Source: Mesotaenium endlicherianum
Taxonomy: Eukaryota
Assembly (NCBI GenBank): GCA_009602735.1
Contig: WELA01003242.1
Coordinates: forward strand, 58,208-106,568
Length of the DNA stretch: 48,361 nucleotides
Reading direction: 5' to 3'
The translations under genes and the position numbers were made by a program. Under the pieces are notes generated by a model that did no database searches, was not told where the DNA came from, and saw only the letters and a list, made by a program, of their open reading frames with translations. Below are positions 7,843-48,039 of the stretch, in pieces; within the stretch, counting starts at the first letter, position 1; every line of letters starts with the position of its first letter.

Positions 7843-9520
7843 GATGCATCGGTGATGACGTGCAAGGGCCAATCTGGGTTTGGACTTGGGAGTGTGAGCA
7901 CCGGGGATGTCGTCAATCTTTGCTTCAGTTGTTGGAATGCTTCCTCCTCTTTGTCGGTCCAAACATATGGCTCGTCCTTCTTGAGTAGATCCGTCAGAGG
8001 GGCTGCTATGTGCGAGAAGCTCTGGATGAATCTCCTGTACCATTTGGCAAATCCCAAGAATGATTGGAGTTCTTTCTTGGTCGTGGGGGTTGGCCACTCC
8101 TCCACCACCGTGGTCTTCTTGGGGTCCATCTTGATGCCATCAGCGGTCACGTGGTGACCTAGGAACTCCACTTCTTGTTTGGCAAACTCGCACTTCGACT
8201 CCTTTGCAAATTGCTTAGTTTGCTTCAATACTTCGAGGACTTCTTTCAAGTGTCTCGCATGCTCTTCAAGGGTCTTGCTGTAGATAAGGATGTCATCGAT
8301 GAATACCACCACAAATCTGTCCAACATGGGCTGAAATATGGTGTTCATCATAGTCATGAAAGTTGCTGGCGCGTTGGTGAGTCCAAATGGCAAGACCATG
8401 AACTCAAAATGTCCATATCTTGTCCTGAATGCCGTCTTCTCTATGTCCGGTTCTGCGATGCGAATCTGGTGGTAGCCGCTCCGTAAGTCAATCTTCGTGA
8501 AGTACTTGGCTCCAACCAGCCGGTCCATGAGCTCATCCATGCGCGGCAGCGGGTATCGATTCTTGATGGTGATCTTGTTGAGGGCGCGATAGTCCACACA
8601 CATCCTCAAGGTACCATCTTTCTTCTTGACAAATAGCACCGGGGCTCCAAATGGCGACTTGCTAGGTCGAATGAAGCCATGCTCCAGTAGCTCTTTGATT
8701 TGCTTCTTGACTTCGTCTAGCTCCGTGTATGACATTTTGAACGTAGGCCGAGAGATGGGCTTGCTTCCGGGCTCCAACTCTATCTTGTGGTCTACGAATC
8801 TTTTGGGGGGTAGGCCCTTGGGCAATTCCGGAGAGAATACTTCTTTGTAGTCCTCTAAGACTTCTTGTATCTCCTTGGGAAGCGGGTTGCCTTCTTGACT
8901 CTCGATGTCTTTCTTGATGTCTTTTGGCGTGATTATGGCCAAAAGAAGCTCGTGTCCCTTCCTCACAAGTCTCTTGAATTGGAGGGCGGACAATAGTATC
9001 TCGTGTGCCGGCTTCTCGATGTCTTGGGTCTGGATATTCTGGATTGCACACAAAATACAGATTCTTGAAGTGATGTCATTCTTGATCTTGATAGTACCGG
9101 TCCTCCAATCAACTTGGGGGTTGTGCTTGGTCAACCAAGGCGTCCCTAGGATGACGTCGTACTTGCCCAATTGCATGGGGGAGAACACTACTCTATCCTT
9201 GAAGGACTTGATAGAGAGTGCCAAGGGGTACGTCTTCTTGGAAGGGGTAGTATAGGAGAATCCATCGGGCATCATAATCTCCTCGTCGTGGTCAAGAGTT
9301 CGCATAGTATTACCGTGCTTGGTGGCAAAATCTACAGCAATGAAGTTGCCTTGAGCTCCGCTATCCACCAAGATGTGGACCTTCTCTCCTCCAAGGTAAC
9401 CTCTCAAAATCATTGGGGCTGGAACGTCGTCTTCAACGGGAGTCTCCACCTCACTTGGCTTGTTGTCTTCTCGTGAACTGGGTCTTGGGGTGGTAGGCTC
9501 CTGGCCTACCGGCGATGTCC
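7843..9520 (-). pseudogene. pol: Truncated pol of copy B (protease, RT, start of RNase H)
   Basis: [38 protein letters not shown]; ends at HVITDAS. Confidence 0.93.
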
Positions 9521-10757
9521 GTTAATTGACAACTTTTTGGGGCATGACAATGCACGATGGCCCTTTTCCTTGCAATAAAAGCATAGTCCACCCGTCATAA
9601 GAGCTTCTTTTTCAGCCGGGGAGAGTCTTGCTTTCACTCCTTGCTGGTTTCTTGCATCATAAGTGTCATTGGAGGGTCTTCCACTCTTCCTGGCAGCCGC
9701 AGGGTCCCTTTTAATAACTCCAATTTCCATGGGTGTGGGTCCAGATTCGGATGTGGAAGGGGCTGCGTACACCCGCGTCGCCGGAACCCGTGAAGATGGA
9801 GGCACGGACTGCTTGAAATCCAAGGTATCCACCTTTTGGGCCACTTCAATGATCCTTGAGAAGTCCGTCAAGTCGCGTAATTCCACTTCCTTTGCCACCT
9901 TGGGCTTGAGGCCAAAGATGTAGCGGTCAATCTTCTCCTGGAGAGACATGTTGGGGATCTCAAGAGTGAACGGACGTCGTTTGCTTGAGATGGTGGAGCT
10001 TTCCTTGAGCAATCTTCTCCGCATTGATGGGCATGAATTGCTTCTTGAGGGCCTCACAAAAATCTGCCCATCTTGCATATGATGGTGGGGGCTCTTGGCC
10101 GAGCATGGGGTGCGCCATAGCTTGATATATAGCCGCTTGATAGTTACGCCACCATGATGTTGCTGCTCCTCTAAGTAAGGTAACGGCAAAGGGAACGTAG
10201 TCCTCCTCGGGTACTTCAAGGAACGCGAGGTACGTCTCCACTTGGTAGAGCCATAAATTCAGGTTGGCACCTTTCCCGGGGTTGAAAGTGTCGGGTTTGC
10301 CGGGCTTGATGAGTTTCCTTGCTCTCGTTGGCTCTTGTGGAGGCGCTTGAGCCGGGGCTGGATTTTGAGCATTGCTCGCAATAGGGGCAACCATGGCAGC
10401 CATAGCTTCTCTTGACGCTTGCACGGTTGCTTTATAGGTGGCCAAGCCCACTTGGTTGTGGACGGTCATTAGGAAGGCTGCCTACTCATTTGCGGGAACT
10501 CCTTGTGGTGGGGTCAACTTTGCTATAGCGGCTACCACGGGATTTGACGGTGCTCCTCCTTGTGGTGCTTCTTGTTGTTGCAAGTTTCCTTGAGTAGGCT
10601 CTCCCATCGGCGCTGGAGGACGGTGTACTCCTCCTTGTGGTACTTCTTGTTGTTGCAGATTTTCTTGAGAGGGCTCTCCCATCGTCGCTGGAGGAGGGTG
10701 TCTTGGAGAGGAAGGGCTTCCTTCGAAAGCTTGCTGTTGGTCTTGAGGATCGGCCAT
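9506..10757 (-). pseudogene. gag: Disrupted gag of copy B
   Basis: Matches gag 40754-42034 but has a TGG>TAG stop at 10482-10484 and a 29-bp frameshifting deletion near 9970. CCHC knuckle [14 protein letters not shown]. Confidence 0.92.
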
Positions 10758-10794
10758 CTTCTTGTGCTACCAAAGTGCCTAGCTCCGATACCAC

Positions 10795-11304
10795 TGTAGT
10801 GAAACAGATAGATGAAGTACTTAGTGAAATATAATACTTTATCTATTCAAGAGAAGGACTTTTGAACACAAGTGGTAGCTTCTTGAAAGAGAGATGGCTT
10901 CTTGAAAGTTAATTTATTTCTGGATTTTGGAACAAATTAGCAACAAGAGTGATTCTGGAATGTCTTTCTATGTTTTAGCTCTTGTTTATATACTTGCTAA
11001 ATAAGTAATTTCTAGGAAGGTGCATGTTGATGTGTTGGCACCCAACACATCCCAAAACTTGCCACCTCTTTCTAGAATAATGTACACATGTCCTCTTGAC
11101 CTAAAAATGGCACATTTGACTTTTGCCACGTGGAGTTCTTCTAGGTCTTTCCTCTAACTTCGAAAATGCCTTAGAAGGTTCAAAGGACATGAACCAAGTC
11201 ACTAGAGTACCTATTCACACTTGAATCCACACAATATTACTCCAAATACATTTGAAAACATTAAAATATATGCAAACTAATATATAATAACTCAAATCAC
11301 TACA
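10795..11304 (-). repeat. 5' LTR of copy B; iMet-type PBS at 10782-10793
   Basis: TGTAGT...ACTACA termini; homologous to LTRs at 16728, 35895 and 42072; minus-strand TGGTATCGGAGC follows it. Confidence 0.95.
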
Positions 11305-11924
11305 CCAGTCCCTCTCGTTTCATTTTCCCTTGCCCATGCCTTAGCTATTCTAGGTCCTCGCGATTTTGAGTAGCTTAGTATGGACCTTCATGTTATTTCA
11401 AAGCTCGCTCCATTTTGATTAATACTCCCTTTTTTGTCCGGTTTTTTTTTTATTTTTTATTTTTAAAGACTGTAAGTTAGGTCGTCATTTGCAGCATGTA
11501 TTTCTTGTAAATCGAGAAAGAGCGTTTTCACACATGGGCATCACCATTGGACTTGGGCATCACCATTGCTGTCGTGCCTAACAGCATCAGACCCATGGCA
11601 CGTGCGTGGCTTCTTAGCACGTGTGACTTCGACCTGGTTGACGTGTCGGCAGTCCTCCTCGCGTGCGGAGATTCCCTAGTCGTTTGGTCGGTGCGTTGCT
11701 GCACGTGGGGAATCAACCGGATTGATTGACCTCTGCACGTGAGTTGGTGACAAACTGGCTGGGGGTTGACCCATTCTTGGTCTTCCTGCACTTGCATCAT
11801 GCGGTGAAGCATCCCCCACTCAGTGCTTTCCATGCTCTATCAGTTCCTCATTCCACACTACCCACACTTAGCATAAATTTTTGAAAAGGTAGCTTATCTT
11901 CAGCTTCCCTTACACCCCTCCCTT

Positions 11925-13417
11925 TCAGCTGAGGCGTCCTTGCCTTTCCGCTGAAAGCTTCAATTTCCTAACTCTGCGGATGGGGATTTTAGGAAGGCAG
12001 TCAGGACATTCCCACCGTCCTGCCATAATCTCTTCCTTACCAATGCAGAAGGTGTGCCGACGAGCACTACACTTATCGCAAGTTACCATTGCTTCTTGAT
12101 CATCCAGCACTTTGCAGCTGACACAAGGCGTGGCTGGCACTAATTTCTCAGGCACAGCCTTAACCGTAGGATCGATATTTGGCAAATGGCACAGCGAGCA
12201 GTTCTGCACGTGATCTCTCATGGTCTTACCATCAGAACCTTCCAGTTCCAACACACCATTGTCGAACGCATGTTTCACGCGTAAGATCACTGCACCTGAA
12301 CTGGTGTCGATGGTGGTCTTGGTCTGGCGCTTGCGATAGACAAAATCTCCTTCCTGGATCTGCGTCATTTGCAGGCGGTGGCTCCCATCTCGCATCCTGG
12401 CGTAACGCTGCGTGTCTCTTTTCGGTGCAATTTTTAGATAGTCCAGGGCAGCAGGCATCATGCGCTTGAGTAACGCCTTGCGGCGTACCATGACCTTTAG
12501 CAGTTCATTAGGGTTGTCCAGGTCTTTCACCTGCTCAATCTCCTGCTTGATGCTGCTGGCACCACTGGACTTCTGCAAAACAGAATCTGGTAAGGCGAGT
12601 AATTCGCCAACGCAGCTTGCTCGCTAAATCTATAACCCATAACCAGCCATGGCAGGGCCAAATCCCAATCACGCTTATCATGCTCAAGGCAAAACTTGCG
12701 CAAAGCAGACTTAATGGTTTGCACCATCCGTTCCGCTAGACCATTTGCTTGTGGGTGGTCTTTAGACGTAGTGCGATGGTCAATGAAGCATCTGTCCAAG
12801 AGTTTCTGAAAAGATCCTTGAAACTCAGACCCTTGGTCTGTCAACACTTTTGCTGGAGCTCCATGACGTACAATCACACCGTTGAGAAGCGCTTCCGCGG
12901 TCCCCAAGCTCTCCTTAGCAATTAGGGGCACAACCTCTATCCACTTAGAGAAATGCTCAATCATGACAACAATGTACTTGTTACCTCGCTTGGACAGCGG
13001 TAGCTCACCTGCGAGATCGCAGCTCCACCGATAGCCTAGGCCCATGATTGGCAAAGGTTGCAGGTGTGGATGTTGCTGAGTAAAACCAGCCTTGACGCGA
13101 TCACAGCTTTGGCAGGCCTTGATCACATCCTCACAATGCCGCTTCATGCCCCTCCACCAGTAAGACAGCTCCAAAAGACTGTACATCTTCTTGACACCAT
13201 AGTGTCCAGTATTCTCGTGCATTTCTTGCACCAGAGCTCGCCTTTTGGTGGGTTCTGGTACCAACTTCTCCTGATCAGTTTCTTCAATCTTGAAGAGGTT
13301 ATTGCGTTTCCAGCAAAAGCTTTTAGCTCGATGGCTCACCTGGTCCTTCTCTTTCACAGCTAATCCCTCCATGTGGGCTCCCGTCTTCAGCCAGTGCATA
13401 GTGGCTTGATCTTCCAA
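11925..13417 (-). pseudogene. Integrase of D with C-terminal PHD finger (frameshift near 12570)
   Basis: HHCC (HENTGH..CQSC); DDE motifs WSCDLAG, LTDQGSEF, NGLAERMV; C4HC3 pattern CVSC-x12-CDKC-x4-H-x2-C-x10-WECPDC at 11997-12125. Confidence 0.9.
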
Positions 13418-13559
13418 ATCTCTGGACTGAACAGGGGTAGAGGCTCAGCTTCACCTGACGCTACCATTCCAACCATTTTGGCCGGTATGCCAACTCTGCT
13501 GGGCTGCTCGGATCTTCGTCTTTTCAAGCTCTTGTTCTATCGTCTAAGGATGGGCTTGA

Positions 13560-14960
13560 GTTCCTGCTGAGTCCATCGGCGTCGTTGTTGAGTACACCTG
13601 CTCAATGTACCACCGTCATCTTGTACTCCTGGAGCTTGAGAGCCCAGCGAGCCAATTTACCAGTGAGGTCTCCATTCTTCATCAGCCAGAGCAACGGTGA
13701 GTGATCTGTGATCAGCGTGAAAGTTCTTCCCCATGGATACTCTCTGAAATGTGTGACAGCCCAAACCACTGCCAACAACTCTTCTTCGTAGGACGAGTGT
13801 TTGCTCTCTGCTCTGTTGTTAGAGCGCGAGGCATAGGCAATGACGTACTCCTCTCTAGGACTTGCAGCCTGAGTGAGTATTGCGCCGATTCCCACACGAC
13901 TCCAATAGGTGTGTAGATTGAACGGCTTGGAGTAGTCAGGCGTTCGCAAGACTGGGGCCGTTACCAGCCGCTCCTTGAGCTTGTTCATGGCTTTCTCCTG
14001 GGCTTCCGTCCACACAAAAGGAACATTCTTTTTCAGGAGTTTCGTCAAGGATTTAGCAATTTTGCTATAGTCCTTCACAAATTTACAATAGTATCCGCTT
14101 AGACCTTACAGAGCTTTCATCTTAGACACATTCGCAGGTGCAGGTATCTTGTAAATGGCTTCAGTCTTTACAGCTTGAGGGAACACAGCATTGTTCCCAA
14201 TCTCATGTCCTAAGTAAGGCACATGTGCCTCAAAGAATCTGCACTTTCCAGGATGCAGCGTCATCTGGAATTCCTCCAGGCACTGGAACACTTGTTCCAA
14301 GTGCTCGAGGTGCTCCTCCATGGACTTGCTAAACACCACTACCTCATCAATGGATGGTTTTGCAAAATCTAGCCCCTCCAGCACTTCATTCATAGTCCTC
14401 TGAAAGATGGCTGGGGCATTTTTCAGCCCAAACGGCAATACCGTCTATTGCCAAAGTTTCCTTTGAGCCCAGAAAGCGGTCTTACCTCGATCTTCCGTTT
14501 TTACAGGGATCTAGTTGAAGCCTTGGCGTAGATCGATGATGCTGAACACCTTTCCGATGGTGGCAATCGCAAAGATCCGCTCTGGTGTAGGCATCACGTA
14601 GCTGTCTGGCTCCGTGTGGAGGTTTAGTCGCCTGTAGTCTCCACACATACGAGTGGCTGTATAATTGCCAGCCTCGTCCTTCTTGGCAACTACTATTGTG
14701 GGCGCTCCATGTACTGAGGTCAATTTCTCAATCATGCCGAGCTTGTGCAATTCCTGGCAAGTTTTCTTCACACAATCCTATTTGGTCTGACTGAGCTTAC
14801 GCGGCCCCAGTCTGACTAGGTTATCAGTAGTTAGTGTGATCTCGCACACAACGGCAGTGGTTCTACCAATCTTCTCCTTGGTGAAAGCAAACACCTTGCG
14901 GTGCTTCTTCAGCAGCCTTTCTACTTGTGCTCTCTATTAGGCTGAGACCATTTTTCCAAT
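13560..14960 (-). pseudogene. Reverse transcriptase and RNase H of D (several stops and frameshifts)
   Basis: RMCGDYRRLN, IDLRQGFN, LPFGLKNAPAIFQR, decayed catalytic SIDE, VIAYASR, ELLAVVWAV, ITDHSPL, KLARWAL. Confidence 0.92.
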
Positions 14961-14970
14961 GGTGAAAACC

Positions 14971-17664
14971 TCAGTTTCCGACTGCATCACCCCAACACAG
15001 GCATCCAATAGTTGCTACTCTTTGGGAAAAGCCCTCATCTTGACCTTCAGGCTTTTCTGCCTGATTGTTAGGCGGTGGAGTGGCAGGCTTCGCAGCTTGC
15101 TCCTCCGCTGGCTTAGGCTCGGTGGCCTGCTTCTTAGGCCTTTTACCTTTTCCAATGGATTGCCGCCTCTCCTGTTGAGTGGAGTATGTCAGACGCCTCC
15201 GGATGGGCTGCCTCAAGAACCGTTCTTCATCGGCTGCAGTCCAGCTGGTCCCCGTTCCTCCCTCTTCACGTGGTGGGGGCGGGTTCGGCAAAGGCCACCC
15301 TGCTGGATCTGCTCTAAGGTCGATTGTCCAACCCCACTCGCGCTCAATGGTAGCAATGCGCGCAACGATTGTGCCAAACTCCTCCCTGGCTGGTGGCGTA
15401 ACCGTCCATGCTTGTGTCAAAGTCCGTGGTCTTTGAGCCGCAGCTAGTTGTGCGTATACAGCATTTTCTGCCGTTAAGCGACTTATGGTACTTTTCAGCT
15501 CTACCAATTCCCTTTCAAAAAGTGCGGGTGTCCTAGGAGCTGAACTATCCTTCTCCCACGTTCCAGTGGATGAAGGGCGTACCTTGGGAGTGGGAATTCC
15601 CAATGCCATGGCTTTGCGAACCAAGCCATCCTCTCCCTCTCTCTGCAAAATCTCTAGGATAGGTGACGAAGGAGGTGCCATGGTTCCTTTTGGAACCCCT
15701 TCTCTCTGAGCTGTTCCTCTAGAGATACCGCATCAGCATCCGCCTGAAAGGTGCATTCCCTTCTCGGGCCACCTTTCTTGGTCTGCTTGCGACCGTGAGG
15801 ATTACCTCGTATTGGTTCCACCTTAGCGGTGCAGGCAGCCACTTCTTGCGGCTGTTGTAGCTGATGTGGGGTAGCTTCTGGTGCTAGAAGACTGGCGGTT
15901 GGAGTGCTGGATGTAGGCGACCTCAGATCGTTGTATAGATTTGCCGGGCTGGGCCCCTCCATTATCAAGTGGTTGGCCATCCAGTCATCCGTCCTGAGCT
16001 CTTGTAGTTAGCTCTGGGGTAGGGCGTGGAATTTCTTCCGGAATCTCCTCTTCATTGGTGACTGACGACAGGTCTATCTGTGGAAGATCTGGCATCTTTG
16101 CCTCATCTTAAACTGACTTCTCCATTCTAGGTGGTGGTGGCTTTCCATCATTATCTGTGTTGAGCTTTGCCAGGTTGACGATGGATGATTGTAAAGCGCT
16201 TGCCGCCTTAGCCACTTCCTCTTCTTTGTGCCGTCGAGCGTCTGCTTCCAGCAGCTGCTCCATGATCTGTCTTGCAATAGATTTAGCTGTCTGACTGGCT
16301 GAACCCTGCTGTTGCCCTTTGGCCTGCGACTCTGGGCTCATCAAAGAAAGTGTTGTGGGCAATTGCTTGCTTGACTCCTCCTTACGTTCTTCGAATATCA
16401 CTTCGAGACATACGGTCTTTGCAGACCCTCCAGAATCTCCTGACTTTTGGCTACTCTCTTCAGCCCATTCACCAATATTACACTGGCGTTCTTGCACTGA
16501 TGCTTGGTTTAGTAGGTATTATTCATAGTCTTCAAGCGTTGGCTCAGGGGTCTTCTTCTCAGAATTCTCTGACATGTCTTGTAACAGCGCTTGCTCTGGT
16601 GAAGACGATAGACACCTTCGGTGAGCTTCCCAGCTACTTGAGCTTTCCTGCCGATAGTCTCCGCGCCTAGCTGCTCTTGGGCTGAGGTGGGTATCATACC
16701 CTGATCTGGCATCTTTTGGAGTCTCCTTGTAGTGAAACAGATAGATGAAGTACTTAGTGAAATATAATACTTTATCTATTCAAGACAAGGATCTTTGAAC
16801 ACAAGTGGTAGCTTTTTGAAAGAGAGATGGCTTCTTGAAAGTCAATATATTTCTGGATTTTGGCAAGTACAAGAGTGATTCTGGAATGTCTTTCTATGTT
16901 CTAGCTCTTGTTTATATACTTGCTAAATAAGTAAGTTCTAGGAAGGTGTATGTTGATGTGTTGGCACCCAACACATCCCAAAACTTGCCACCTCTTTCTA
17001 CAATAATGTACACATGTCCTTTTGACCTAAAAATGGCACATTTGACTTTTGCCACGTGGAGTTCTTCTAGGTTTTTCCTCTAACTTCGAAAATGCCTTAG
17101 AAGGTTTAAAGGACATGAACCAAGTTACTAGAGTACCTATTCACACTTGAATCCACACACTACTACTCCAAATATATTTGAAAACATCAAAATATATGCA
17201 AACTAATATATAATAACTCAAATCACTACACTCCTCACGCCTTGATGTCGTGGCTCTAAAAGGTGGACTCCCAGATATTTGATTGTGAGTGGCGATTCTC
17301 ACGGATGGCGGGGTGTCCTGCGTACCATCTTCTGCGCTTGGCAGCGGCGTTGTCTGCTCATGCGTCTGGTCCCCCATGGGTGTATCCTCTCTTTCCAGAG
17401 GTGCTTGTAATTCAGCGGTCCGGTTATCGATCCGGTAGAATAGATCCTGGTATCTCATCAGTTCAGCTACCCCAGCTTCCTTGAATGCTCTGTCTCTGGC
17501 AGCTTTTGCTGCATCTCTTTGCACACCGTATTCTTCTTGTTGCTGATGTGCCGTCCTGATAGCCCTCTGATCAGATGTTGGCACCACATGGACCCCAATT
17601 GTCACTGGTCTTGGCCTAGGCATAGGCTTGTCAGTGAAGATCAACTGCTGCAATGTCATGATGG
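14971..17664 (-). pseudogene. Long P/E/Q/S-rich linker of D between methyltransferase and RT, split by the solo LTR
   Basis: Chain of same-strand ORFs (17141-17797, 16108-16497, 15654-15980, 14971-15681). Frame continues across the solo LTR (..SRREE|TPKDARSG..). No domain recognised. Confidence 0.65.
16728..17230 (-). mobile_element. Solo LTR of family A (503 bp)
   Basis: TG...CA termini; perfect 5-bp TSD CTCCT (16723-16727, 17231-17235); no PBS or PPT. Confidence 0.97.
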
Positions 17665-18621
17665 TCACCACCAGCCAAGTCATAGAGTGCTGTCCAATCA
17701 TGTTGCTGAAAATCTTCGCAGCTTCATCTAATCCTACGACACTGACTATCTGCCGAGCTATGGTGTTGGGTATTCCAAGGCATTTTCCCTTCTCCACCGC
17801 AATAGGCTCTCTTCAAACGGCATCTCTTTCATGCATGTCTTTGACCATTCTTGGTCCACTTCCTATGAAGGCTCGAGATCCTGGATACGCTGTGAAGGTT
17901 GGCAGTACCACCCTTGGCTGACCTGGTTCGTTAATGACGCATTGTGGATAGGAATCCCTCCTAGTCACTGGCCTGGTATGTATCGCCAGCGCCTTTTCCA
18001 CCGTCAATGCCGTCGGTGATTGCCGTGTAAGGTCTTCCATCTCTCTCAGGATCTCAACAGACATGCCGTTGGTCCAAAATATTCTGGCCCTATGGGATAA
18101 TCCTCCGTGCTTAAAGTCGTTGATTAGCACATAATGACCCAAGGTGGAGTCAAAAATTAGCCATGGCTCTCCCGGCTTCATCTGCTTGTAATCCATTCCT
18201 GGATGTACGTTTTCAACCACAAACATTGGTGGGTGATAGTGCTGACGTTCCCGCAGCATGCTGATGATTTTCACCATCCATCCCAAGTGTTGTGCTCGTG
18301 GATCACTAAATCCCCTCCTGTTCCCAGCTTGAGAAAATGGTTGACAAGGGAATCCAGCAAAGATCCAGTCAATCTTGTAGCCATACAGGTCTTCAGGCTT
18401 CACATTAATAATGTTGCCTCCACGATGCGCTCAACATTAGTGTATGCGAGCACCAACCCCTTAAAGTGATGCATTTGCTGCATCTGACTCATGACTTCTC
18501 TGAATGCTAGAAAAGCATGGTTAACATTGTCCACATACAGGACTGTGGCCACTTGGATCCCTCGCTAGATCAATGCTATGGTCCCTGACCCAAGTCCGTC
18601 GAACAATTCCAACACCACTAC
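17665..18621 (-). pseudogene. C5-cytosine DNA methyltransferase domain inside the D polyprotein
   Basis: Motif I VLELFDGLGSG, II LYVD, IV AGFPCQPFSQAG (core 18341-18355), V DPR, VI FVVENV, VIII HRARIFW, IX REPIAVEKGKCLGIP, X-like FSNMI. Stops at 18565 and 17813, frameshift near 18420. Confidence 0.93.
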
Positions 18622-18899
18622 TCCCGTTTTACGAAAAGGATCTCCCATCCTGACAATGCCTTGCGGCAGCGGCTCGACTCCAGGCATCAGGTTTGCAGCG
18701 GAGATAACTGGGTAGGGTACTGGCAGCAGCTCTTGCGGGCCGCGGTCCCTATTACTCACAGTTTCCAGCTGCTCCATAATCAGAGGCTGCCATACCAAGG
18801 GTGTTGGCATGTTGATGCTCGTATAGCTTTCCTCTTCGCGCTTCATAATGTTGTCGCAAGATTCTGGGTACTTGTCGTTAACGCAGCAGTCTAGCAGCT

Positions 18900-19163
18900 C
18901 GTAGTTTGCTTCTCCTGTGCAAACCATCTTCACAGGAATTTCTCCTGCCGGCTGCCGATTTGTTGACTGGTAAGTCACCTGCTGCTTCCGCAGAACAATG
19001 ACTATACCCAAAGGAATCAACGCTTCCGTTCCCAAGAGAACATCATAGTTCTCTGCTTCCGTCACTGTGCACTCCATGAGTAGTGACGCCTCTTCAGGTT
19101 TCCCTCAATTTACTGTGATTTTCACAGGCTTGCGGGTAATCCCACAAGACTTTGAGACTTGCC
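18900..19163 (-). pseudogene. C-terminal half of D aspartic protease
   Basis: YDVLLGTEAL; in phase with LLDTGAQ...LRTAS| on the far side of element C (TAS|GQVSKSCG). Confidence 0.85.
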
Positions 19164-19168
19164 CTGAG

Positions 19169-20223: not shown

Positions 20224-21089
20224 CATGGTTACGCCGTACGCGTATCTGACGCTCTTGATACGCTAAATTTAGCGTATCAAGTTGGTACGTGCGTATCAAG
20301 CGTACGAAACTTTTTGCACACCTGTGCGCCGCCCACGACGCCGTTCGACGGCCGTTTGGTCCGGTGCTCAATGTTTTTCCATTTCAAAGTTTCTCGTCGA
20401 CAATGTGGGACGGGGATAAAAATAAAGGTTGAACACAGTTCGATGAGTTAGGGCAGTCAATGGCGGGAACACCAGAACCTTCGTGCCTTTTAGTTTGGCT
20501 GCTGGCAAGCAAGAACTAATCGCTGTGTTAGGTACGAGGATTTAATTTGCAGCATGTACACTAGTGACTACTGACTAGAGTCTTTCTATTGTCATTTTCC
20601 GCGTATTCTTCATTCGTATGTAGAGTCGTATCCAAAACGAAGGAAGGCAATCATTTTAGCAGATCACTGTGGCGCGGCAAGACGCGAATAATAGGCTGAG
20701 AAAGAGTACCTGATAGCTTGCAGGTGATCACAATCTGGCTATCCTCAACTTTCAGAGCACCTCCCATGCATATCATCTTGTGCTCCTGAGTTTGGCAGGT
20801 GTGCACATAGGGCTGCCAGGCGTGTGCGGGGCGGACCGGGAGTTGTCCTTCTGCGCTTACACATTGCTGACCTCGTGAGCCCCGCACCGTCCCTCTCTAC
20901 TCTTGCTTGCACTCCTCATCTCGCCTCCGCCGCCACGTTGTGCTCTTCCAGTAGCAGCACTGCCGGGATTGGGCTTCTGTGGCTGCTCCTTGCTGGGTGC
21001 CTGATTAGTGGCAACGTCAGATCATCTGATAGGGGAGGCAAGGGAAGGCAGAGAGGGTGTGCGGAAGGGAACAAGCTAGGCAAGGGACG

Positions 21090-22745
21090 AGGGAGGAGAG
21101 AGAGGGCAGGGAGGGAGGGAGGAGCAGGCAGGGATGTGCAACGCTGCCTGCTGCTGCCTGCACACTCTCCCTTGCAGGCTCAGAGGTGTGCAGATGGGAG
21201 CAGGCGGGAGGAGGAAGGTGGTAGGAGGTAGGAGGTAGGAGGGAGGAGAGAGAGGGCAGGGAGGGAGGAAGCAGGAGGGAGGGAGGAGCAGGCAGGGATG
21301 TGCAGCGCTGCCTGCTGCTGCCTGCACACTCTCCCTTGCAGGCTCAGAGGTGTGCAGATGGGAGCAGGCGGGAGGAGGAAGGTGGTAGGAGGTAGGAGGT
21401 AGGAGGGAGGAGAGAGTGGGCAGGGAAGAAGGAAGCAGGAGGGAGGAGGGAGCGGTCAGGGATGTGCAGCGCTGCCTGCTGCTGCCTGCACACTCTTTGT
21501 CTCTTGCAGGCTCTGGCAGCAGGCTCTGGCTTGTTGGGGTGGGCGGGGGAGTGGGGGGGCTGCTCCTCTCGCGGGGCTGGCAATCATGAGGGGGCTGTAA
21601 CATAAGCATCTGCACCCCTTTTCGCCCTCCTTAGTGTGTCCAGGGGCTGTCCTCGCCTCCTGTTTTAGCGTGTGGAGAGGTCTGTGCAGGGGCTGTCTGG
21701 GGCAGGGCAAGGCAGGGCAGAGAGCAGACAGGCTGTGCAGAAGGGAGCAGGTTAGGCGAGGGAGAGGGAGGAGGGAGGAGGGAGGAGAGTGGGCAAGGAG
21801 GGAGGAAGCAAGAGGGAGGAGGGAGGAGGGAGGAGGGAGGAGAGTGGGTAGGGAGGGAGGAAGCAAGAGGGAGGAGGGAGCGGTCAGGGTTGTGCAACGC
21901 TGCCTGCTGCTGCCTGCACACTCTTTGTCTCTTGCAGGCTCTGGCAGCAGGCTCTGGCTTGTTGGGGTGGGCGGGGGAGTGGGGGGGCTGCTCCTCTCGC
22001 GGGGCTGGCAATCATGAGGGGGCTGTAACATAAGCATCTGCACCCCTTTTCGCCCTCCTTAGTGTGTCCAGGGGCTGTCCTCGCCTCCTGTTTTAGCGTG
22101 TGGAGAGGTCTGTGCAGGGGCTGTCTGGGGCAGGGCAAGGCAGGGCAGAGAGCAGACAGGCTGTGCAGAAGGGAGCAGGTTAGGCGAGGGAGAGGGAGGA
22201 GGGAGGAGGGAGGAGAGTGGGCAAGGAGGGAGGAAGCAAGAGGGAGGAGGGAGGAGGGAGGAGGGAGGAGAGTGGGTAGGGAGGGAGGAAGCAAGAGGGA
22301 GGAGGGAGCGGTCAGGGATGTGCAACGCTGCCTGCTGCTGCCTGCACACTCTCCGTCTCTTGCAGGCTCTGGCAGCAGGCTCTGGCTTGTTGGGGTGGGC
22401 GGGGGAGTGGGGGGGCTGCTCCTCTCGCGGGGCTGGCAATCATGAGGGGGCTGCAACATAAGCATCTACACCCCTTCTCGCCCTCCTTAGTGTGTCCAGG
22501 GGCTGTCCTCGCCTCTTGTTTTAGCGTGTGGAGAGGTCTGTGCAGGGGCTGTCTGGGGCAGGGCAAGGCAGGGCAGAGAGCAAACAGGCTGTGCAAAAGG
22601 GAGCAGGTTAGGCGAGGGAGAGGGAGGAGGGAGGAGGGAGGAGAGTGGGCAGGGAGGGAGGAAGCAAGAGGGAGGAGGGAACGGGCAGGGATGTGCAGCG
22701 CAGCCTGCTGCTGCTTGCCCACTCTCTGCCTCTTGCAGGCTCTGG
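21090..22745. repeat. Tandem array inside hAT with periods 164, 164, 428, 428, 373 bp
   Basis: Anchor similar to GGGATGTGCARCGCTGCCTGCTGCTG at 21131, 21295, 21459, 21887, 22315, 22688. Confidence 0.92.
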
Positions 22746-22797
22746 CAGATGTCGATGTGCTGACCCCACCCACTCTTGCATGGCACGTGCCTGGCAG

Positions 22798-22893
22798 CCC
22801 GCAGCCGAGAAGTACCTGAACGACAAGAAGGCCTTCTTCCACGAGTACGTTGAGGCGCACAAGAAGCTCAGCGAGCTGGGCGCCAAGCTTCAG
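22798..22893 (+). pseudogene. Captured exon resembling the ascorbate peroxidase C-terminus
   Basis: AG|CCC...CAG|GTGAG, 96 nt, PAAEKYLNDKKAFFHEYVEAHKKLSELGAKLQ, matching the APX consensus YAEKYAxDxxAFFxDYAEAHxKLSxLGAKF. Confidence 0.82.
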
Positions 22894-23781
22894 GTGAGCT
22901 CCATGACTAGCATGCCGTGCCTGGCCTCTGGCTTTGTCGCCCCTTTTTTGCAACCAGCCTCTGCCTGAATTGTTGATTAATCCAATGAAGGGAGCTTGGG
23001 GGGGGGGAAGGGGGGGGGGGGATGCAGGCTCAGACGGTCTCAACGCGCACAAATCTGCGTGTGGTGACCTTGCAACCTCTTGCACTTGAAGCCTGAAGGT
23101 GTGCGCAAGGCTTGCGCCCTACCTGGCCCGTGTCTCTGCGCGCTTCATCGCAGCCACCTCTTGCCTGATTTGTCAATTAATGCAATGAAGGGCTGCTGGG
23201 GGGGGGGGGGGTGTAGGCTCAGAAGCTGGCTGCCCCGCCAAATCTGCGTACTTCGATCCTGCAAGCTCTCGCACATCGAGGTGAGCGTGAGGACTTGCAC
23301 GCCCTGCCTGGCTTGTGGTTTTGCGCGTTTGTTTACTGCCAGCCCTTGCTTGAATTGTTGATTAAGGCAAAGAAGGGGGGGCTTTTGGGGGGGGGGTGTG
23401 GGTGCATGCTCGAAAGCAGACTGCTCCGCACAAATCTCGTGCGTCGACCCTGCGACCACTCGCAGTTTGCACAAATCTCGTGCGTCGACCCTGCGACCAC
23501 TCGCAGTTACAGGTCAGCGCGAGGACTAGCACGCCTATCCCCCTGCCTTTTTGCATGTATGTGTGTGCGCATGACTTGCCTGCATGCGCGCGTTCCTGTG
23601 CGCTTCATTGTGGGGATGTGGGGCAGCTCGCAACAGCGCGCCCAATGACGCTGCTGTGCGTGTGGCGGTTGTCGGGCACGCTGCTGTGGGCTGCCGCTTG
23701 TCGTCGTCGTCGTTGTTGTTGTCTTCTTGCCTTCTCCTTATTCTAACACTGTTTCTCTTGTCCATGCAGATTTTTCCCAAC

Positions 23782-26460
23782 ATGTCTATTCCCTCCACGT
23801 CATCCGCGTCGGCACTTGCTGCAGGGTCATCATCTGCAAGGCTACCTCGTTTGAGCAATGCAATAGAGTGGGGCCATGTGTCGGTCAAGTGGAGTGGGGC
23901 TACTCGGAAGTGGAAATGCAACTACTGCAGTAGTGAATTTGGCGGGGGAGTTCCTAGAATTCGCGGTCATTTTACGGGAGGGAGCAAGGATATTGGTGAG
24001 TGTGCAAAGGTACCCACAGAGGTTGTGGCGCTCATGATTAGGCGTCACCAGAACGTGTCGTCCATGGGGGAGGGCAAGAGACGTAGTAAGAGTGTCGTAG
24101 AGGAAAGACGTAGCCGCTTGCTTGGAAGGCCTTCTGCTGGTAATGGGGTTGGATATACCAGTCCAATTGCAAGTGTTGGGGGGGTAGGCTATGAGAGAGA
24201 GAGAGGACAAACGTCTCTCAATGACATGTTTCAGCGGATGAATGCTGATAAAGTTCATGAGGTAGTTGCCCGCTTTTTTTATGGTACTGGTTCTTCTTTC
24301 AATGTGGCTCGCTCCCCGTTGTTTAAGGACATGTTGGTTGCTGTCAGTAAGTACACACAGCAAACTGGTGTAGTGTACACCCCATTGAAAGACAAGCCTC
24401 TTGGAAGTGCTCTCTTAGATGCGGAGGTCAAGAGGCTAGAAGCGTGGGAGCAGACTCAGAAGAAGGGGTTGCCCTTTACAGGTTGTAGCGTTGTAGCAGA
24501 TGGCTGGACAGATCCAAGCGGTCACCCTCTTCTGAATGTCCTCATGGTCATAGCAGGTGTGGAGATATTTGTAGATGCTATCAATACCGAAGGGGAGAGG
24601 AAGACGGGAGAGTACATTGGTGAGCAGCTCCTTAAAGCAAGGTTACGCCATACGTTCATACGCTTAATACGCTAGATACGCTAGTTCGCTAAATTCGTTA
24701 CAGCAAAAATTGCTTGATACGCTTAGTACGCATCACAATTTACGCCTTATTTTACGGCATGTGTACAAAATTACTCCAGTCGACTTCTTTGAGAACTTTG
24801 AAGGCATATGACACTTCTTAGGACGGTACACCATGCTTTGAATACAATCTCTTGACCTCCCCCCTCCAAACGAATAAGTTTCATTTTTACACTTCAATTT
24901 TATCCAAATACGCTTAATACACTATACGCTATTTACACGCTGAATACGCCTAATTTTTTGGGCTGATACGCGTATGGCGTAACCTTGCCTTAAAGCTGTG
25001 GAGAAAATAGGGCCTGAGCATGTTGTACTTCTTTGCACTGACTCTGCAGCCAACATCAAGAAGGGGTGTGAGTTAGTTCAGAGAGAGCACCCGCACATAT
25101 TTTGGGCACCGTGTGCTGCCCACATCCTAGACCTGCTGTTGAAAGATCTAGGCAAGATCCCCGAGCTAGCGGACATCGTTGAGAGATTCAAAATTTTGGT
25201 TCAATTTGTGACTAACCACCATATGCCTCATGCACTCTATCGTGAGCATGGAGCGAGGCTATTGAATAAGTTAGAGTTGTTGAAACCAGGACCTACCAGA
25301 TTTGCAAGTAACTTTCTTTGCTTGCAGAGGCTGATCAGTGTCAGGGATACATTACAAGCCATGGTGTCTGATAGTAGGTGGCTTGAGTGGGCAGCGATGA
25401 ACAATTGTGTGAGTGAGGCAACACGGATTAGGGATTTAATTCGTGACGATCCAGTTTGGGAGAAAATGAAAGTGTGGGTGGATGTGTGTGAGCCGATAGT
25501 GGTGCTTCTGCGTTTGGTGGATTCTTCAACGCCTTCATTAGGAAAAATTTGGCATCGGATGAGTGGGATCCAGAAGCATATTGCCAATTCACCAAGTCTC
25601 AAGGCTAGTCACAAGACCCAAGCAAAGAAGGAAGTGGAGGCACGTTGGGAGCAGCTTCACAGTCCGCTCCATTCTGCAGGCAAGTGTTCATACTTGATGC
25701 TTCTTCTTATGTTCTCCATGGCATTAACATTATTTATTATGTTATTTAAATTTTGGCAAGCAATTTTGCCGGGCTAGCTTGTTGCTGTCAGGTGTTGCTA
25801 TAAGGCAATGGTGTATGTAAGTCTTTGTGCGTCCTGCTGAGCATTATTGTTTTTGTGGTTGCAGCATACTATCTGGACCCCGAGTTCCAGGACCATGACT
25901 CTTGGACCGCCGACAGGTGCCTACTCCCAGAGTACATGCAGGTGGTCAAGTGCATCATTGGAGGATCTGTAGCAGAACGTGCTAAGGTGGACCAAGAGTT
26001 GGCGCTCTATCGCCGATGTGGCGTCGCGTTCGGCGATGATGTTGTGAAGGCTAACAAGACCAAGATGCCAGCTCACATTTGGTGGGAAACATACGGAAGT
26101 GCGTGTCCTAACCTTCAAAGGGTTGCTATAAAAGTTCTCTCGCAACCTGCTTCTGCTGCTGCGTGTGAGAGAAACTGGTCTGAGTATGGTTTTGTTCATA
26201 ACCCGCTACGAAATAGGCTGCTTGCAACGAGAGCAAGGAAGCTAGTGTATGTGCATTCCATGTTGAGGCTGCAAGAGAAGAGTGTGAAGTTGCTAAGCGC
26301 AGAAAGCGTTGGAGAAACGTCTTGGGTGGAGGAAGCAGACTTTGTGCAAGCGTCTGAAGAGGAGGTAGTACCTTCCCAAGATAACGTTGAGTTGTCTGAG
26401 GAAGAAGAGGCAAAGGAGGAGGTGGAGGAGCTGCCTCTTACTGTGGCAGCTCCAGGTTGA
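23782..26460 (+). pseudogene. hAT transposase (BED finger, DUF659-type core, C-terminal dimerisation domain), disrupted by a MITE
   Basis: WKCNYC..RIRGHF..C; DGWTD; CTDSAAN; WAPCAAHILDL; TRF; WW..YG..PNLQRVAIKVLSQPASAAACERNWS. Segments 23782-24637, 24996-25679 and 25865-26460; true start uncertain. Confidence 0.93.
24638..24987. mobile_element. 350-bp hAT MITE
   Basis: 17-bp TIR CAAGGTTACGCCATACG; perfect 8-bp TSD CCTTAAAG (24630-24637, 24988-24995). Confidence 0.97.
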
Positions 26461-27493
26461 AGAAGATTCAGGTCAATTGACTACTAGTCTTTATATGTAG
26501 CTTGCATGTGATTAACAGGAAAAAACAAAACTGGAAGAGTCTTAATATATTTTATTATAATGTTGAATCCTATTAGCTTGCAAGTTATTTTTACCACCTT
26601 ATGACAGAACGGCAAGATAAGTAAGGACCATCTTATGACAAAGGTAGGATTTGCATGTCATTGATGATTTGTATGAGTTTTTTTTTTGCAATCATGTAAC
26701 ATTAAATTGTTGACACATGAACTTTAATTTGCTATTACATGAACCATTATTAAAGAAGTGGTAGGATACGTATTGTTGCATATTTATCTGGTTAAGAAGC
26801 AATTCATACGTTATTGACCATGTAGGTAACTTGTAACTTGTGCACTAAAAGTTACCACGCATACACATTTTGCGCTTCAAAATGTGTACCCAAAACTCTC
26901 TTCATGTGTAATTGGAAATCATTTTTCTTATCATAACAACCTATATGACTCTGTCTTGAACAAGGAGAGAATTTGACTTAAATTTGGACACAGCTAATGA
27001 GGAAATTTGCCAAATAATATGAATCACAAATAGAGGATAAAATATCAAATAATCCAACATGCCATACACCAAACATGGAGTGTAATATGCACTTGTTTAT
27101 AGATAAAACATACACCATCTTGAATGGACATAGTGATAAGTTACTGTGATTATAGTGTGCATCATTCACATTTTGCTGCCAGCACCGACGGCCAACTGGG
27201 TGAAGGGGAAAAAAAAAACTTCAAAAGTTTCCGTAATATATTTTTTCTTTAACAAAAAACGCCTTCATTAGGAAAAAAATTTGTTGCTGCTCGGTTTACT
27301 CAAAAGAAAGTACAATTGTACGGTTACGCGTGCGATCGTCAGGACTTACCGTCGACGTTCAAACTTAACGTCGTGACGTCGACATTAGCACGTATTAAGC
27401 GTATCAGGCGTATTGAGCTATTTTGTTACATAACGAATTTAGCGTATTAGCGTTTATAGCGTATATAGCGTACTAACGTATGGTGTAACTCTG

Positions 27494-32602: not shown

Positions 32603-32607
32603 CTGAG

Positions 32608-34852
32608 GCAGTTCTCAATTGGAAAAGACTCTCTTTCAGGTCCCTTGCTGTCAATCCTAGAGCTTTCACAGCTCGCTTTCACAGGATGACTGGCTGTGCG
32701 CCCGTATCCAACAAAATGATGGGGGCTGCCCAGTTGTTGAATATTAGTGCACCATCCCTATTCTGCACTCTCACAGTGCTGATATTGGTAGGCAATGAGG
32801 CGCTGTTTGCACCTTCCTCAGCTATATCCAGCTGAAGTCCGGCTTCTTCAAGCGTGAACGAGTAGGTGATATGCAAATTAGCGAGAGAAAGCAAAGGAGC
32901 ATGCTGGATCCGGTGTTCCACCAGGGTCCTCAGCTTCTCTAGCAAAAATATAAATTTCTTACGCGTCCCAGGCCTGGCTTGTCGCAGTTGCGAAATCTCA
33001 TTTTCATCCAGAGAAATCCGAAAAGTCTGAGAAAGCTTTCCAGCATTCCTTTGCACCAGACGGTCGTGATCTGCTCGCTCGGCAGTCGTTGCACCCACGG
33101 CTTTTTTAGGCATTAGTTTCTTGCCTTTGCAGACGGTCCTTTCCGCAACATCTGCATCATAGTAGACATTAGGCGCATTTAGTTTTGCAAATTGAGCTTT
33201 CAACTCAGCGATTGCTGCACACATAGCGTCGTACTTCTGGTTACCCTTGCGGTTGCCAGAGCCACCCTTTTCTTTCTTTTTCTCCTTGTCTGCCTCTTTC
33301 ATGGCAGCATTCGCCCATGGCGGCTTTACATTTGGATTCTTAGACCAGCACTCATCTTCTGAGTGTCCCTTCTTGGTGCAATGTGCGCATATCTTTGCCT
33401 TGCTACCAGATAGTTGCTTAACATCCAGGTACGGACAATCTCTCTTCTGGTGTCGTGATTTCCCGCGATTCCAACAACCCTCTGCTATTTCAGCAGTGTT
33501 GGCGTGCTTAGCAAACTTATTGAAAGACCCGCTCTTTCTCTTAAACCGAAAATTGGAGCCGTTGGCCTTAGGCGGAGAGGATTCCTCCCTCCTCTCAGGA
33601 GCCATAAGCATCCTAGAAGCCTCCTTATACCACACTTTACCTTCTTCGACATTGCGTGCTATTTCAGCCGCCTCGTCAATGTCCCAATCAATCCCGTGTT
33701 TCGCGGACGGGTGTGGCCCGACTTCACAATCTGTTGCCTTGCCCAAGCACAACAGAAACTTGTCAGCCACTATTCTGGGCTCGTATATTTTTGCCTTTTT
33801 GGCGAGGTTTACCAATCTGGATTTAACCTTTATGATTGTCTCGCTCTTCTGACGAACAAAATGCACATAACGGTGCACCTTAAGACTGCAATCCTCTGGG
33901 AATCGTGCTTCAAGCAACTCAAAATAACGACGCAGGCAATGCTCGGAGTCTAGTTGGTCATCCCCAGCCTCCATATCCTTACGATAGCTAGCCAAGGCTT
34001 GCGCATGGCTTGCCTCTGTCGTGGCGCTATCGCCTTGCTGACCGTTAAAAGGTGCAGCTCTGCGCGTTACTCGTTCCTGAGCATTAGCAATCTTTTTGGA
34101 CAGTTCTGCACACACCTTTCGCAACTCTGCGGAAGAGCCGGCATCATCATTCTGAGTTGCAGCCCTTTGTTGGCCCTCAGTGAGTTGCCTCATGGCCTCT
34201 GTTAATTCTTGTGTTAGTGCAACTAAGTCTATGCTCTCAACAGGTGCAATTGGCACTCCTCTTCCTGAAGATAAAGAAGACATTCGGGCTTTCGCAGCCT
34301 CTTTCTGAATTTTCAAATCCCTTGCCCTTTTTTGCTCTCCAAATGCCCGTTCTTGAGTGAGATCCTCATCCTTCCGGAATTGGCGATATAGCAACAAGAC
34401 ATCCTTATCTAAGTACTGAACCAAGCCTATTATTGCGACAGATTGCGTATGAGAAGAATTCTTCCGAATCTTCTCAAAGAATTCTGCCCAATAGATCTCA
34501 TCAAACTCTTCAAAAGTGAGACCGTTTCCACTGGTTCGTCCATTAAAACACTTTGCAGACAGCTTGAACTTAGGATTTTCATCCCGATCATCACCGGCCA
34601 TTTCGAACGGTGACCAGGACTCACTGACTTTACCCCACACATCTTGCTCTCTGCCCGAATTAGGTGCAAAGGCTCGTGTGTTATCCGAGTTCTCATTGCT
34701 TGCGGAGATATGGCGAGACTCGTCTCTCGACGGTTGCTCACTCCACCGGTTGATGTATGCTCAGACGTCTCACTTCCTCGTGGACTCTGGCTAGAGTCAG
34801 AACCTTCTGCAGGCTCCACAAAGTGGTAGAGTCTTCCACTCCTCAATCGCAT
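32608..34852 (-). pseudogene. gag: Gag and N-terminal protease half of D
   Basis: 653-aa ORF with knuckles CWNRGKSRHQKRDC (decayed) and CAHCTKKGHSEDEC, ending in LLDTGA. Possible start MRLRSGR at 34852 would need a frameshift. Confidence 0.85.
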
Positions 34853-35894: not shown

Positions 35895-36397
35895 TGTAGT
35901 GAAACGAATAGATAAAGTACTTAGTAAAACAGAATACTTTATCTATTCAAGACAAGGATCTTTGAACACAAGTGGTAGCTTCTTGAAAGAGAGATGGCTT
36001 CTTGAAAGTTAATATATTTCTGGATTTTGGCAAGTACAAGAGTGATTCTCCAATGTCTTTCTATGTTCTAGCTCTTGTTTATATACTTGCTACATAAGTA
36101 ATTTCTAGGAAGGTGTATGTTGATGTGTTGGCACCCAACACATCCCAAAACTTGCCACCTCTTTCTAGAATAATGTACACATGTCCTTTTGACCTAAAAA
36201 TGGCACATTTGACTTTTGCCACATGGAGTTCTTCTAGGTCTTTCCTCTAACTTCGAAAATGCCTTGGAAGGTTCAAAGGACATGAACCAAGTTACTAGAG
36301 TACCTATTCACACTTGACTCCACACAATACTACTCCAAATATATTTGAAAACATTAAAATATATGCAAACTAATATATAATAACTCAAATCACTACA
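35895..36397 (-). repeat. 3' LTR of A
   Basis: TGTAGT...ACTACA, adjacent to the PPT. Confidence 0.97.
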
Positions 36398-36434
36398 TCA
36401 CCCCCCCGATAGAAAAAGCGACGTCTCGGCGCGT

Positions 36435-48032: not shown

Positions 48033-48039
48033 GTGAGGG

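What the first reader, a model, noticed from the sequence alone, without database searches (positions are those of the whole stretch)
17665..19163. Gypsy retrotransposon with a C5 cytosine methyltransferase fused directly after its protease
Seen: C5-MTase motifs I, II, IV (GFPCQPFSQAG), V, VI (ENV), VIII, IX and a decayed X occur in order. Motif I lies in the same ORF (18565-19077) as the protease C-terminal YDVLLG, so the MTase belongs to the polyprotein rather than being a bystander. Known: the FPCQPFS motif resembles bacterial/viral Dcm-type enzymes more than DNMT3/DRM (GSPC). From memory, DNMT-carrying retrotransposons have been reported in dinoflagellates and the charophyte Klebsormidium, so the idea has precedent, but this family and domain position may be new. 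Inference: the enzyme could be packaged to methylate the element's cDNA or integration site. This copy is a pseudogene.
Basis: partly seen in the sequence, partly recalled or inferred. Interest (0 to 1): 0.9.

Follow-up and report, generated by a model that had tools for sequence, protein, structure and literature searches.

The report
Gypsy retrotransposon carrying DNMT3-like methyltransferase
This is a broken copy of a multi-copy jumping gene whose polyprotein carries a DNA cytosine methyltransferase of the eukaryotic DNMT3 type, likely used to methylate the element's own new DNA copies; it is a divergent new member of a kind already described in the alga Klebsormidium.

Summary
A C5 methyltransferase (PF00145, 54.9 bits; 205 bits against a family profile built without it) follows the protease of a minus-strand Gypsy element: Gag-PR-DNMT-linker-RT-RH-IN-PHD. 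Removing a nested LTR element (5-bp target duplication) puts Gag, protease and motif I in one frame. This copy is dead (stops, frameshift, two inserts), but sibling contigs cover the whole enzyme, so it is no one-off. The enzyme family is DNMT3-like, not Dcm-like (profile and fold rank DNMT3A/B first). The position is not unique: Klebsormidium nitens GAQ93235.1 has Gag-PR-DNMT with the same GFPCQ motif, and Closterium, Mesostigma and Sphagnum proteins share the order. It is the same kind as KnitGypsy-Dnmt3 (de Mendoza 2018); this scan already noted relatives in two moss genomes. Not found in my literature searches: the clade spans green plants, with a second order, RT-RH-DNMT-IN-PHD, in chlorophytes. 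The window's family is a long branch (about 30% identity) with an extra linker of about 580 codons. Methylation of the element's own cDNA is inferred, not shown.

The parts
32679..34760 (-). Gag ORF (693 aa stop to stop) with one intact and one degenerate CCHC knuckle, ending in the protease N-half (catalytic LLDTG at 32714)
   Evidence: weak match to Gag of Closterium PR-DNMT protein P0151 (E 5e-8) and motifs; no Pfam hit
32604..32717 (-). Aspartic protease, N-terminal half
   Evidence: protease profile positions 4-41, 20 bits
19169..32602 (+). Nested chromodomain Gypsy element (752-bp LTRs, 2.5% diverged) that split the protease; itself holds a hAT remnant. Not part of the DNMT element
   Evidence: LTR pair; target duplication CTGAG and divergence; Pfam; insert plus duplication 13439 bp, Gag frame continues after removal
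18961..19168 (-). Aspartic protease, C-terminal half (YDVLLG)
   Evidence: protease profile positions 40-109, 42 bits
17642..18639 (-). DNMT3-like C5 cytosine methyltransferase, motifs I-X; catalytic Cys, Glu and both Arg present; broken by two stops and one frameshift
14970..17640 (-). Long linker (about 2.1 kb to the RT start without the solo LTR) of unknown function, decayed; about 0.4 kb in relatives
   Evidence: no homologue among fetched proteins or loci; covered by sibling contigs at depth like the DNMT; spacing in relatives
16728..17230 (.). Solo LTR of another chromovirus family inserted in the linker (target duplication CTCCT)
   Evidence: contigs skip it (joint 16722-17231, 4 contigs in X1, 1 in X3)
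13602..14970 (-). Reverse transcriptase and RNase H, one frame, several stops
   Evidence: RVT_1 E 1e-17, RT_RNaseH E 3e-33
12527..13444 (-). Integrase (H2C2 zinc finger and core)
   Evidence: Integrase_H2C2 E 1e-16, rve E 7e-12
11925..12623 (-). Integrase C-terminal region with PHD finger (about 12125-11997)
   Evidence: PHD E 2.4e-5, 24.7 bits, cut-off 24
11306..11926 (-). Polypurine tract (11926-11915) followed by TG and a probable 3' LTR, cut off by a neighbouring element's LTR
   Evidence: sequence; no matching 5' LTR found in the window; LTR status inferred

Best explanation
The locus is a dead copy of a multi-copy Gypsy LTR retrotransposon family whose polyprotein (Gag-protease-DNMT-linker-RT-RNase H-integrase-PHD) carries a DNMT3-like cytosine methyltransferase that likely methylates the element's own newly made DNA. 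Shown: domain order, in-frame link of Gag, protease and methyltransferase, sibling copies, retained catalytic residues, DNMT3-like family. Inferred: the enzyme was captured once from a eukaryotic DNMT3 early in this PHD-integrase Gypsy clade. In active copies the protease would release it inside the particle with RT and integrase, where it would use SAM to methylate cytosines de novo (probably CG, by analogy with SymbioDIRS-Dnmt3) on the double-stranded cDNA before or during integration, so that the new copy arrives pre-marked in a methylated genome. The PHD finger would steer integration by reading histone H3.
For: Family trait: contigs of runs X1 and X3 cover 30 of 30 bins; summed depth over the DNMT is 7,300-17,000 in X1, against 47-60 for most long single contigs; the contigs are open at the stop at 17815 (9 contigs in X1, 11 in X3) and several lack the frameshift. 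Relatives: 28 of 32 integrase relatives long enough to hold it carry the DNMT (29 of all 116). 35 of 84 loci examined have DNMT upstream of RT, 27 of them with a protease before it; 2 clade loci with room lack it, and 0 of 14 loci of other Gypsy clades with room have it. Catalytic residues in homologues: Cys 159 of 160, Glu 172 of 173, Arg 174 and 172 of 177 filled rows (180 rows). DNMT3 type. One RT-RH clade (SH-aLRT 100) holds the window and all 26 DNMT-bearing rows. dN/dS among decayed relatives: median 0.49 for DNMT, 0.41 for RT (229 of 300 pairs, 25 of 35 loci). Precedent: SymbioDIRS-Dnmt3 methylates CG de novo in yeast (PMC5890265, section 10).
Against: The one Gypsy enzyme tested, KnitGypsy-Dnmt3, gave no methylation in yeast; the authors call this inconclusive. 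CpG observed/expected in the element (0.55-0.76) is no different from its DNMT-less neighbours (0.58-0.67). About half of the homologues have Glu in place of the Pro before the catalytic Cys (81 of 161), and the window's motif X is diverged. A single ORF from DNMT to RT is not shown for this family (frame changes in the linker). The window enzyme is a long branch (2.41) joined to the retrotransposon clade at SH-aLRT 94 only, in a quick tree with no host DNMT3. The folded model is of homologue P0123, not of the window protein. Two RNA runs with the same species label gave next to no reads on the DNMT, so there is no sign of current activity. X1 and X3 are one sample and may be the window's source.
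Confidence: 0.6

Rival explanations
1. The DNMT travels with the integrase-PHD and methylates host chromatin or the LTRs at the insertion site, with PHD plus DNMT3 working like the ADD-plus-catalytic module of animal DNMT3 (ADD function recalled).
For: In 89 of 114 classifiable proteins the DNMT lies after RT/RNase H and/or just ahead of the integrase. PHD is present in both orders.
Against: In the window's order the DNMT is several kb from the integrase. No data on insertion-site methylation.
Confidence: 0.2
2. The domain is kept for DNA or RNA binding or shielding (for example hiding cytosines from host deaminases or sensors), or as a self-brake on copy number, rather than as camouflage by catalysis.
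For: No activity of KnitGypsy-Dnmt3 in yeast; Pro-to-Glu change in motif IV in half the family; the 2018 Discussion lists slowing of transposition as an option.
Against: Near-invariant catalytic Cys, Glu, Arg and SAM-binding Gly point to catalysis.
Confidence: 0.14
3. The window's family took up a bacterial or viral Dcm-type methyltransferase independently.
For: The fragment's best PDB hits are HaeIII and HhaI, with no DNMT3 among 20; a word-index search of longer proteins gave only 3 hits, all prokaryote-like; long branch next to the prokaryote-like outgroup.
Against: 205 bits against the retrotransposon family profile, against 33-71 for six prokaryote-like MTases. The variable region carries the family signature (LPT..AYPGS.AF). 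Same position and same RT clade as the DNMT3-type elements. Top hit among 1.84 billion representatives is a Mesostigma PR-DNMT protein.
Confidence: 0.04
4. A one-off insertion or assembly chimera placed a methyltransferase in this single copy.
For: The region is a nest of insertions, and no contig spans the whole element.
Against: Sibling contigs and dozens of relatives with the same order; intact Gag-PR-DNMT-RT-RH-IN protein P0255.
Confidence: 0.01

Closest known systems
KnitGypsy-Dnmt3 of Klebsormidium nitens (de Mendoza et al. 2018, PMC5890265; abstract, sections 6, 9, 10, 11 and peer-review passages read; Fig. 4c and supplementary figures not seen)
   Same: Gypsy element with an intronless Dnmt3-related domain in the polyprotein and conserved catalytic residues. 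K. nitens GAQ93235.1 (P0236), which I infer is one of these elements, has knuckle-protease-DNMT in that order with GFPCQ; 31% identity over 176 columns to the window fragment. A K. nitens integrase-PHD protein is the top integrase hit (its score is inflated by a duplicated segment).
   Different: Only about 28-31% identity. Extra linker of about 580 codons between DNMT and RT. The paper gives a DIRS-like repeat layout for KnitGypsy; no repeat pair was found here, and relatives L034, L019 and L079 have two ordinary direct LTRs.
SymbioDIRS-Dnmt3 and SymbioLINE-Dnmt of Symbiodinium (PMC5890265, sections 6 and 10)
   Same: Retrotransposon-borne C5 methyltransferase; SymbioDIRS is also Dnmt3-type, lies in Pol, occurs in two domain orders and methylates CG de novo in yeast.
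   Different: Different retrotransposon classes (tyrosine recombinase or LINE), independent captures, no protease-integrase-PHD anatomy.
PHD-bearing Gypsy elements of Chlamydomonas: REM1 and Gypsy-7a_cRei (PMC9940879 and PMC6673714, passages)
   Same: Gypsy polyprotein with a PHD finger in a green alga.
   Different: No methyltransferase is listed among the Gypsy-7a_cRei domains in the passages read. Sequences were not compared, so kinship is untested.
Mammalian DNMT3A/DNMT3B catalytic domain
   Same: Best profile match (63 bits) and best fold match for an intact homologue (Z 28.3, rmsd 2.6, 269 aligned); motif VIII H-R-x-R-x-F/W-W.
   Different: About 25% identity; no PWWP or ADD; motif IV reads G[WF][PE]C rather than GSPC (recalled); embedded in a polyprotein.

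Membership tests
Dnmt3-carrying Gypsy retrotransposons (KnitGypsy-Dnmt3 kind) | Gypsy domain set and order (PR, RT, RNase H, integrase) | tested here: met
Dnmt3-carrying Gypsy retrotransposons (KnitGypsy-Dnmt3 kind) | Intronless C5 methyltransferase inside the polyprotein frame | tested here: met
   in frame with Gag and protease after removing the nested element; collinear with the family profile over positions 28-353
Dnmt3-carrying Gypsy retrotransposons (KnitGypsy-Dnmt3 kind) | DNMT in the same ORF as RT and RNase H | tested here: inconclusive
   frame changes in this copy's linker; met in relatives P0006, P0034, P0255
Dnmt3-carrying Gypsy retrotransposons (KnitGypsy-Dnmt3 kind) | DNMT is Dnmt3-related, unrearranged motif order | tested here: met
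   family profile and homologue fold rank DNMT3A/B first; motifs I-X in order. No tree with host DNMT3 was built
Dnmt3-carrying Gypsy retrotransposons (KnitGypsy-Dnmt3 kind) | Key catalytic residues conserved | tested here: met
   Cys, Glu, Arg, Arg present in the window and in at least 97% of filled homologue rows; motif X Gly differs in the window
Dnmt3-carrying Gypsy retrotransposons (KnitGypsy-Dnmt3 kind) | Purifying selection on the DNMT (Ka/Ks under 0.2 in K. nitens) | tested here: inconclusive
   decayed relatives from other genomes: 0.49 for DNMT against 0.41 for RT; the window's own family could not be measured
Dnmt3-carrying Gypsy retrotransposons (KnitGypsy-Dnmt3 kind) | DIRS-like repeat layout reported for KnitGypsy-Dnmt3 | tested here: inconclusive
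   both ends of this copy are cut by other insertions and no repeat pair was found; 3 of 6 relatives checked show a plain LTR pair around the coding region
Dnmt3-carrying Gypsy retrotransposons (KnitGypsy-Dnmt3 kind) | De novo DNA methylation activity | not testable with these tools
   needs an assay; negative and inconclusive for KnitGypsy-Dnmt3 in yeast
Bacterial or viral Dcm-type C5 methyltransferases | Closer to prokaryotic MTases than to the DNMT3-type family | tested here: not met
   PF00145 55 bits for the fragment against 220-617 for six prokaryote-like proteins; family profile 205 against 33-71 bits
Plant DRM methyltransferases | Circularly permuted motif order | tested here: not met
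   motifs I-X in canonical order; DRM2 matches only model residues 1-143

The most novel reading that the evidence does not exclude
One ancient capture of DNMT3 gave rise to a Gypsy clade spread across green plants (chlorophytes, Mesostigma, Klebsormidium, Closterium, peat moss). The enzyme was later moved from behind the protease to directly before the integrase-PHD in one sub-lineage, so these elements carry their own chromatin writer and reader and methylate themselves on insertion. The window's family is one of its deepest or fastest branches, with an extra unknown domain.
Probability: 0.4. Interest if true: 0.7.

Novelty: new member of a known kind. Interest (0 to 1): 0.4.

Why it matters
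Retrotransposons that carry the enzyme class normally used to silence them are rare, and what the enzyme does for the element is an open question. This locus is a dead copy of a known kind, so by itself it is modest. Its value lies in what it leads to. The clade is much wider than the single alga described in the papers I read, it has intact polyproteins in two domain orders, and it includes Scenedesmus and volvocine members that would allow a direct test in tractable green algae.

Tried and rejected
No whole genome is held, so intact sibling copies and family dN/dS could not be obtained. A word-index search with the DNMT fragment among longer proteins found only 3 prokaryote-like MTases; the full HMMER search and the integrase search then found the family. 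The 5' LTR and primer site were sought upstream of Gag and beyond the next insertion with no match; no tRNA gene in the window. The linker matched nothing among 288 proteins and 84 loci. CpG depletion gave no element-specific signal. Contexts of 21 window-specific C-to-T-type differences (from the 40 of 1062 rows shown) were 3 CG, 9 CHG and 9 CHH: too few to read. No RNA holder was listed in the run index, which is no evidence on expression. The host was not identified: a search with the MOZART1 gene found no scored hit; a green alga or other non-seed plant is inferred from relatives only. Whether siblings lack the nested element in the protease was not seen in reads; it rests on the target duplication and frame arithmetic. 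The careful DNMT tree did not finish, so the quick tree is reported (21 of 25 type A rows, 28 of 89 type B rows, 6 prokaryote-like rows). The RT tree used 5 of 7 A, 21 of 45 B and 40 of 44 DNMT-undetermined rows. 61 of 65 viral-collection loci (RT-only matches, 28-33% identity) were left out. Literature searches gave no report of DNMT3-Gypsy elements in chlorophytes, Mesostigma, Closterium or mosses, or of two Gypsy orders. The library lacks most subscription papers, and the 2018 supplementary figures and the 2025 survey's tables were not seen.

Full report
Observation. The methyltransferase is real and lies on the minus strand at about 18640-17640. Pfam PF00145 hits the ORF 17813-18430 at 54.9 bits. 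Motifs I, II, IV, V, VI, VIII, IX and a diverged X occur in order. Motif I shares an ORF with the protease end YDVLLG. A profile of 57 homologues containing no window sequence scores only this region of the window; read through with X at the breaks it scores 205 bits. Two stops and one frameshift break the enzyme in this copy.

Anatomy. The element runs Gag (34760-32680), protease, DNMT, a long linker, RT and RNase H (14970-13602), integrase (13444-12527), PHD finger, and a polypurine tract with a probable 3' LTR. A 13.4-kb chromodomain Gypsy element sits inside the protease, with a CTGAG target duplication and LTRs 2.5% apart. A protease profile hits both halves, and removing the insert keeps Gag, protease and motif I in one frame. 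A solo LTR with a CTCCT duplication sits in the linker. No 5' LTR was found. Without inserts the span from Gag to the polypurine tract is about 8.9 kb.

Family, not accident. Contigs of two runs of one sample cover 30 of 30 bins of 11310-19168. In X1 the summed depth on the DNMT is 7,300-17,000, against 47-60 for most long single contigs; the tool warns that this is no copy number. Siblings are open at the stop at 17815, several lack the frameshift, and some skip the solo LTR. Two RNA runs with the same species label put reads on the solo LTR (depth up to 86) and next to none on the DNMT (6% and 13% of each run read).

Relatives. The integrase found 116 proteins, 10 with a precomputed PF00145; by the family profile, 29 of 116, and 28 of the 32 with room for the domain. 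The DNMT fragment found 658 representatives at E up to 0.001, the best from Mesostigma viride. Of 288 proteins held, 186 hit the profile: 25 have the window's order (PR-DNMT and/or DNMT-RT), 89 have a second order (DNMT after RT/RNase H and/or directly before integrase), and 72 are too short or prokaryote-like. Named members with the window's order are K. nitens GAQ93235.1, several Closterium proteins, Mesostigma and a decayed Sphagnum fallax model; the second order includes Scenedesmus pol and Astrephomene. In DNA, 35 of 84 loci examined have DNMT upstream of RT, 27 of them with a protease before it; 2 clade loci with room lack it, and none of 14 loci of other Gypsy clades with room has it (the query was built from first-order elements and their close RT relatives). 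DNMT-to-RT spacing there is mostly about 0.4-0.6 kb, against about 2.3 kb by the same measure in the window, so this family has an extra region with no homologue among the sequences held.

Which methyltransferase. The family profile (24 rows, one of them the window) reverses this: DNMT3A 63 bits, HaeIII 44, DRM2 36, DNMT1 12. An intact homologue, P0123, does the same by itself. Its model (pLDDT 96) matches DNMT3B at Z 28.3 and DNMT3A at 27.0, ahead of M.MpeI 24.7 and HhaI 22.0; all Foldseek rows listed are DNMT3. The K. nitens protein has the same GFPCQ motif. In a quick DNMT tree the window is a long branch joined to the retrotransposon enzymes at SH-aLRT 94, and the second-order enzymes form one group at 99; no host DNMT3 was included. 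In the RT-RH tree one clade at 100 holds the window and all DNMT-bearing rows, with the second order again one group (plus 2 rows without a DNMT hit). One capture followed by one relocation is the simplest reading; it is inferred.

Mechanism. Catalytic Cys, Glu and both Arg are near-invariant in 180 homologues and present here. Decayed relatives show dN/dS 0.49 for DNMT and 0.41 for RT, both probably inflated by decay after insertion, so this says only that the two domains were constrained alike. From established LTR biology, a domain between protease and RT is made with Pol, processed and packaged with RT and integrase, so its first double-stranded substrate is the cDNA. I therefore favour self-methylation of the cDNA (0.6), ahead of action at the insertion site with integrase-PHD (0.2) or a non-catalytic or braking role (0.14). 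Against: KnitGypsy-Dnmt3 was inactive in yeast, CpG content is no different from neighbouring elements, and half the family has Glu before the catalytic Cys.

Comparison and novelty. De Mendoza et al. 2018 (PMC5890265; abstract, sections 6, 9, 10, 11, peer-review passages) described Dnmt3-related domains in the Pol of a K. nitens Gypsy element. I could not see Fig. 4c or the supplementary figures, which may give the domain order and the accessions. The 2025 survey PMC12344493 (passages, section 5) repeats the streptophyte and dinoflagellate cases. PMC6338049 (passages) states that such elements are absent from land plants such as tracheophytes. PMC11244446, PMC6673714, PMC9940879 and 10.1101/2021.11.30.470311 (passages) add nothing on this clade's methyltransferase. 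This scan's notes e1-7364918 and e1-7226111 already report moss members. Verdict: a new, divergent member of a known kind; interest 0.4. The wider range and the second domain order were not found in my eight searches and are the part worth following.

Noticed in passing
proteins P0050, P0061, P0071, P0150 (Scenedesmus KAF8056149.1), P0093 (Astrephomene): A second domain order, RT-RNase H-DNMT-integrase-PHD, is the commoner one among proteins found (89 against 25) and forms one group in both trees; named members are chlorophytes.
   Followed up: partly
homologue alignment: The Pro before the catalytic Cys is Glu in 81 of 161 rows (GWEC), unusual for C5 methyltransferases (recalled); effect unknown.
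   Followed up: no
P0116, Sphagnum fallax BDL97_09G086500: Decayed Gag-protease-DNMT-RT-integrase gene model in a land plant; Pfam misses its DNMT, while the family profile finds it in three pieces.
   Followed up: partly
P0100: Clade member without a DNMT hit but with a weak D12-class adenine methyltransferase match after the PHD finger (E 4e-4, below cut-off). P0061 has an unexamined C-terminal tail at the same place.
   Followed up: no
window 14970-17640: Family-specific linker of about 580 extra codons between DNMT and RT, rich in Pro, Glu and Lys, with no homologue among the sequences held.
   Followed up: partly
window 35895-42574: Young chromodomain Gypsy element (LTRs 1.2% apart, target duplication AATAT) with long open Gag and Pol frames; a second, truncated copy lies at 7843-11305.
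   Followed up: partly
window 23575-26460: hAT transposase remnant (DUF659) inside the nested element, with related ends near 7748-7842 and 27399-27494.
   Followed up: no
window 44546-44758: Intronless host gene for MOZART1/MZT1 (PF12554, E 1e-23).
   Followed up: partly
window 21000-23120: Tandem 428-bp and 164-bp GA-rich repeats next to an exon that looks like the end of an ascorbate peroxidase (recalled; no Pfam hit), possibly a gene fragment carried in the nested element.
   Followed up: no
window 47246-47450 and 47981-48361: Degenerate CCCTAA-type repeats and a perfect 70-bp tandem array at the window end.
   Followed up: no
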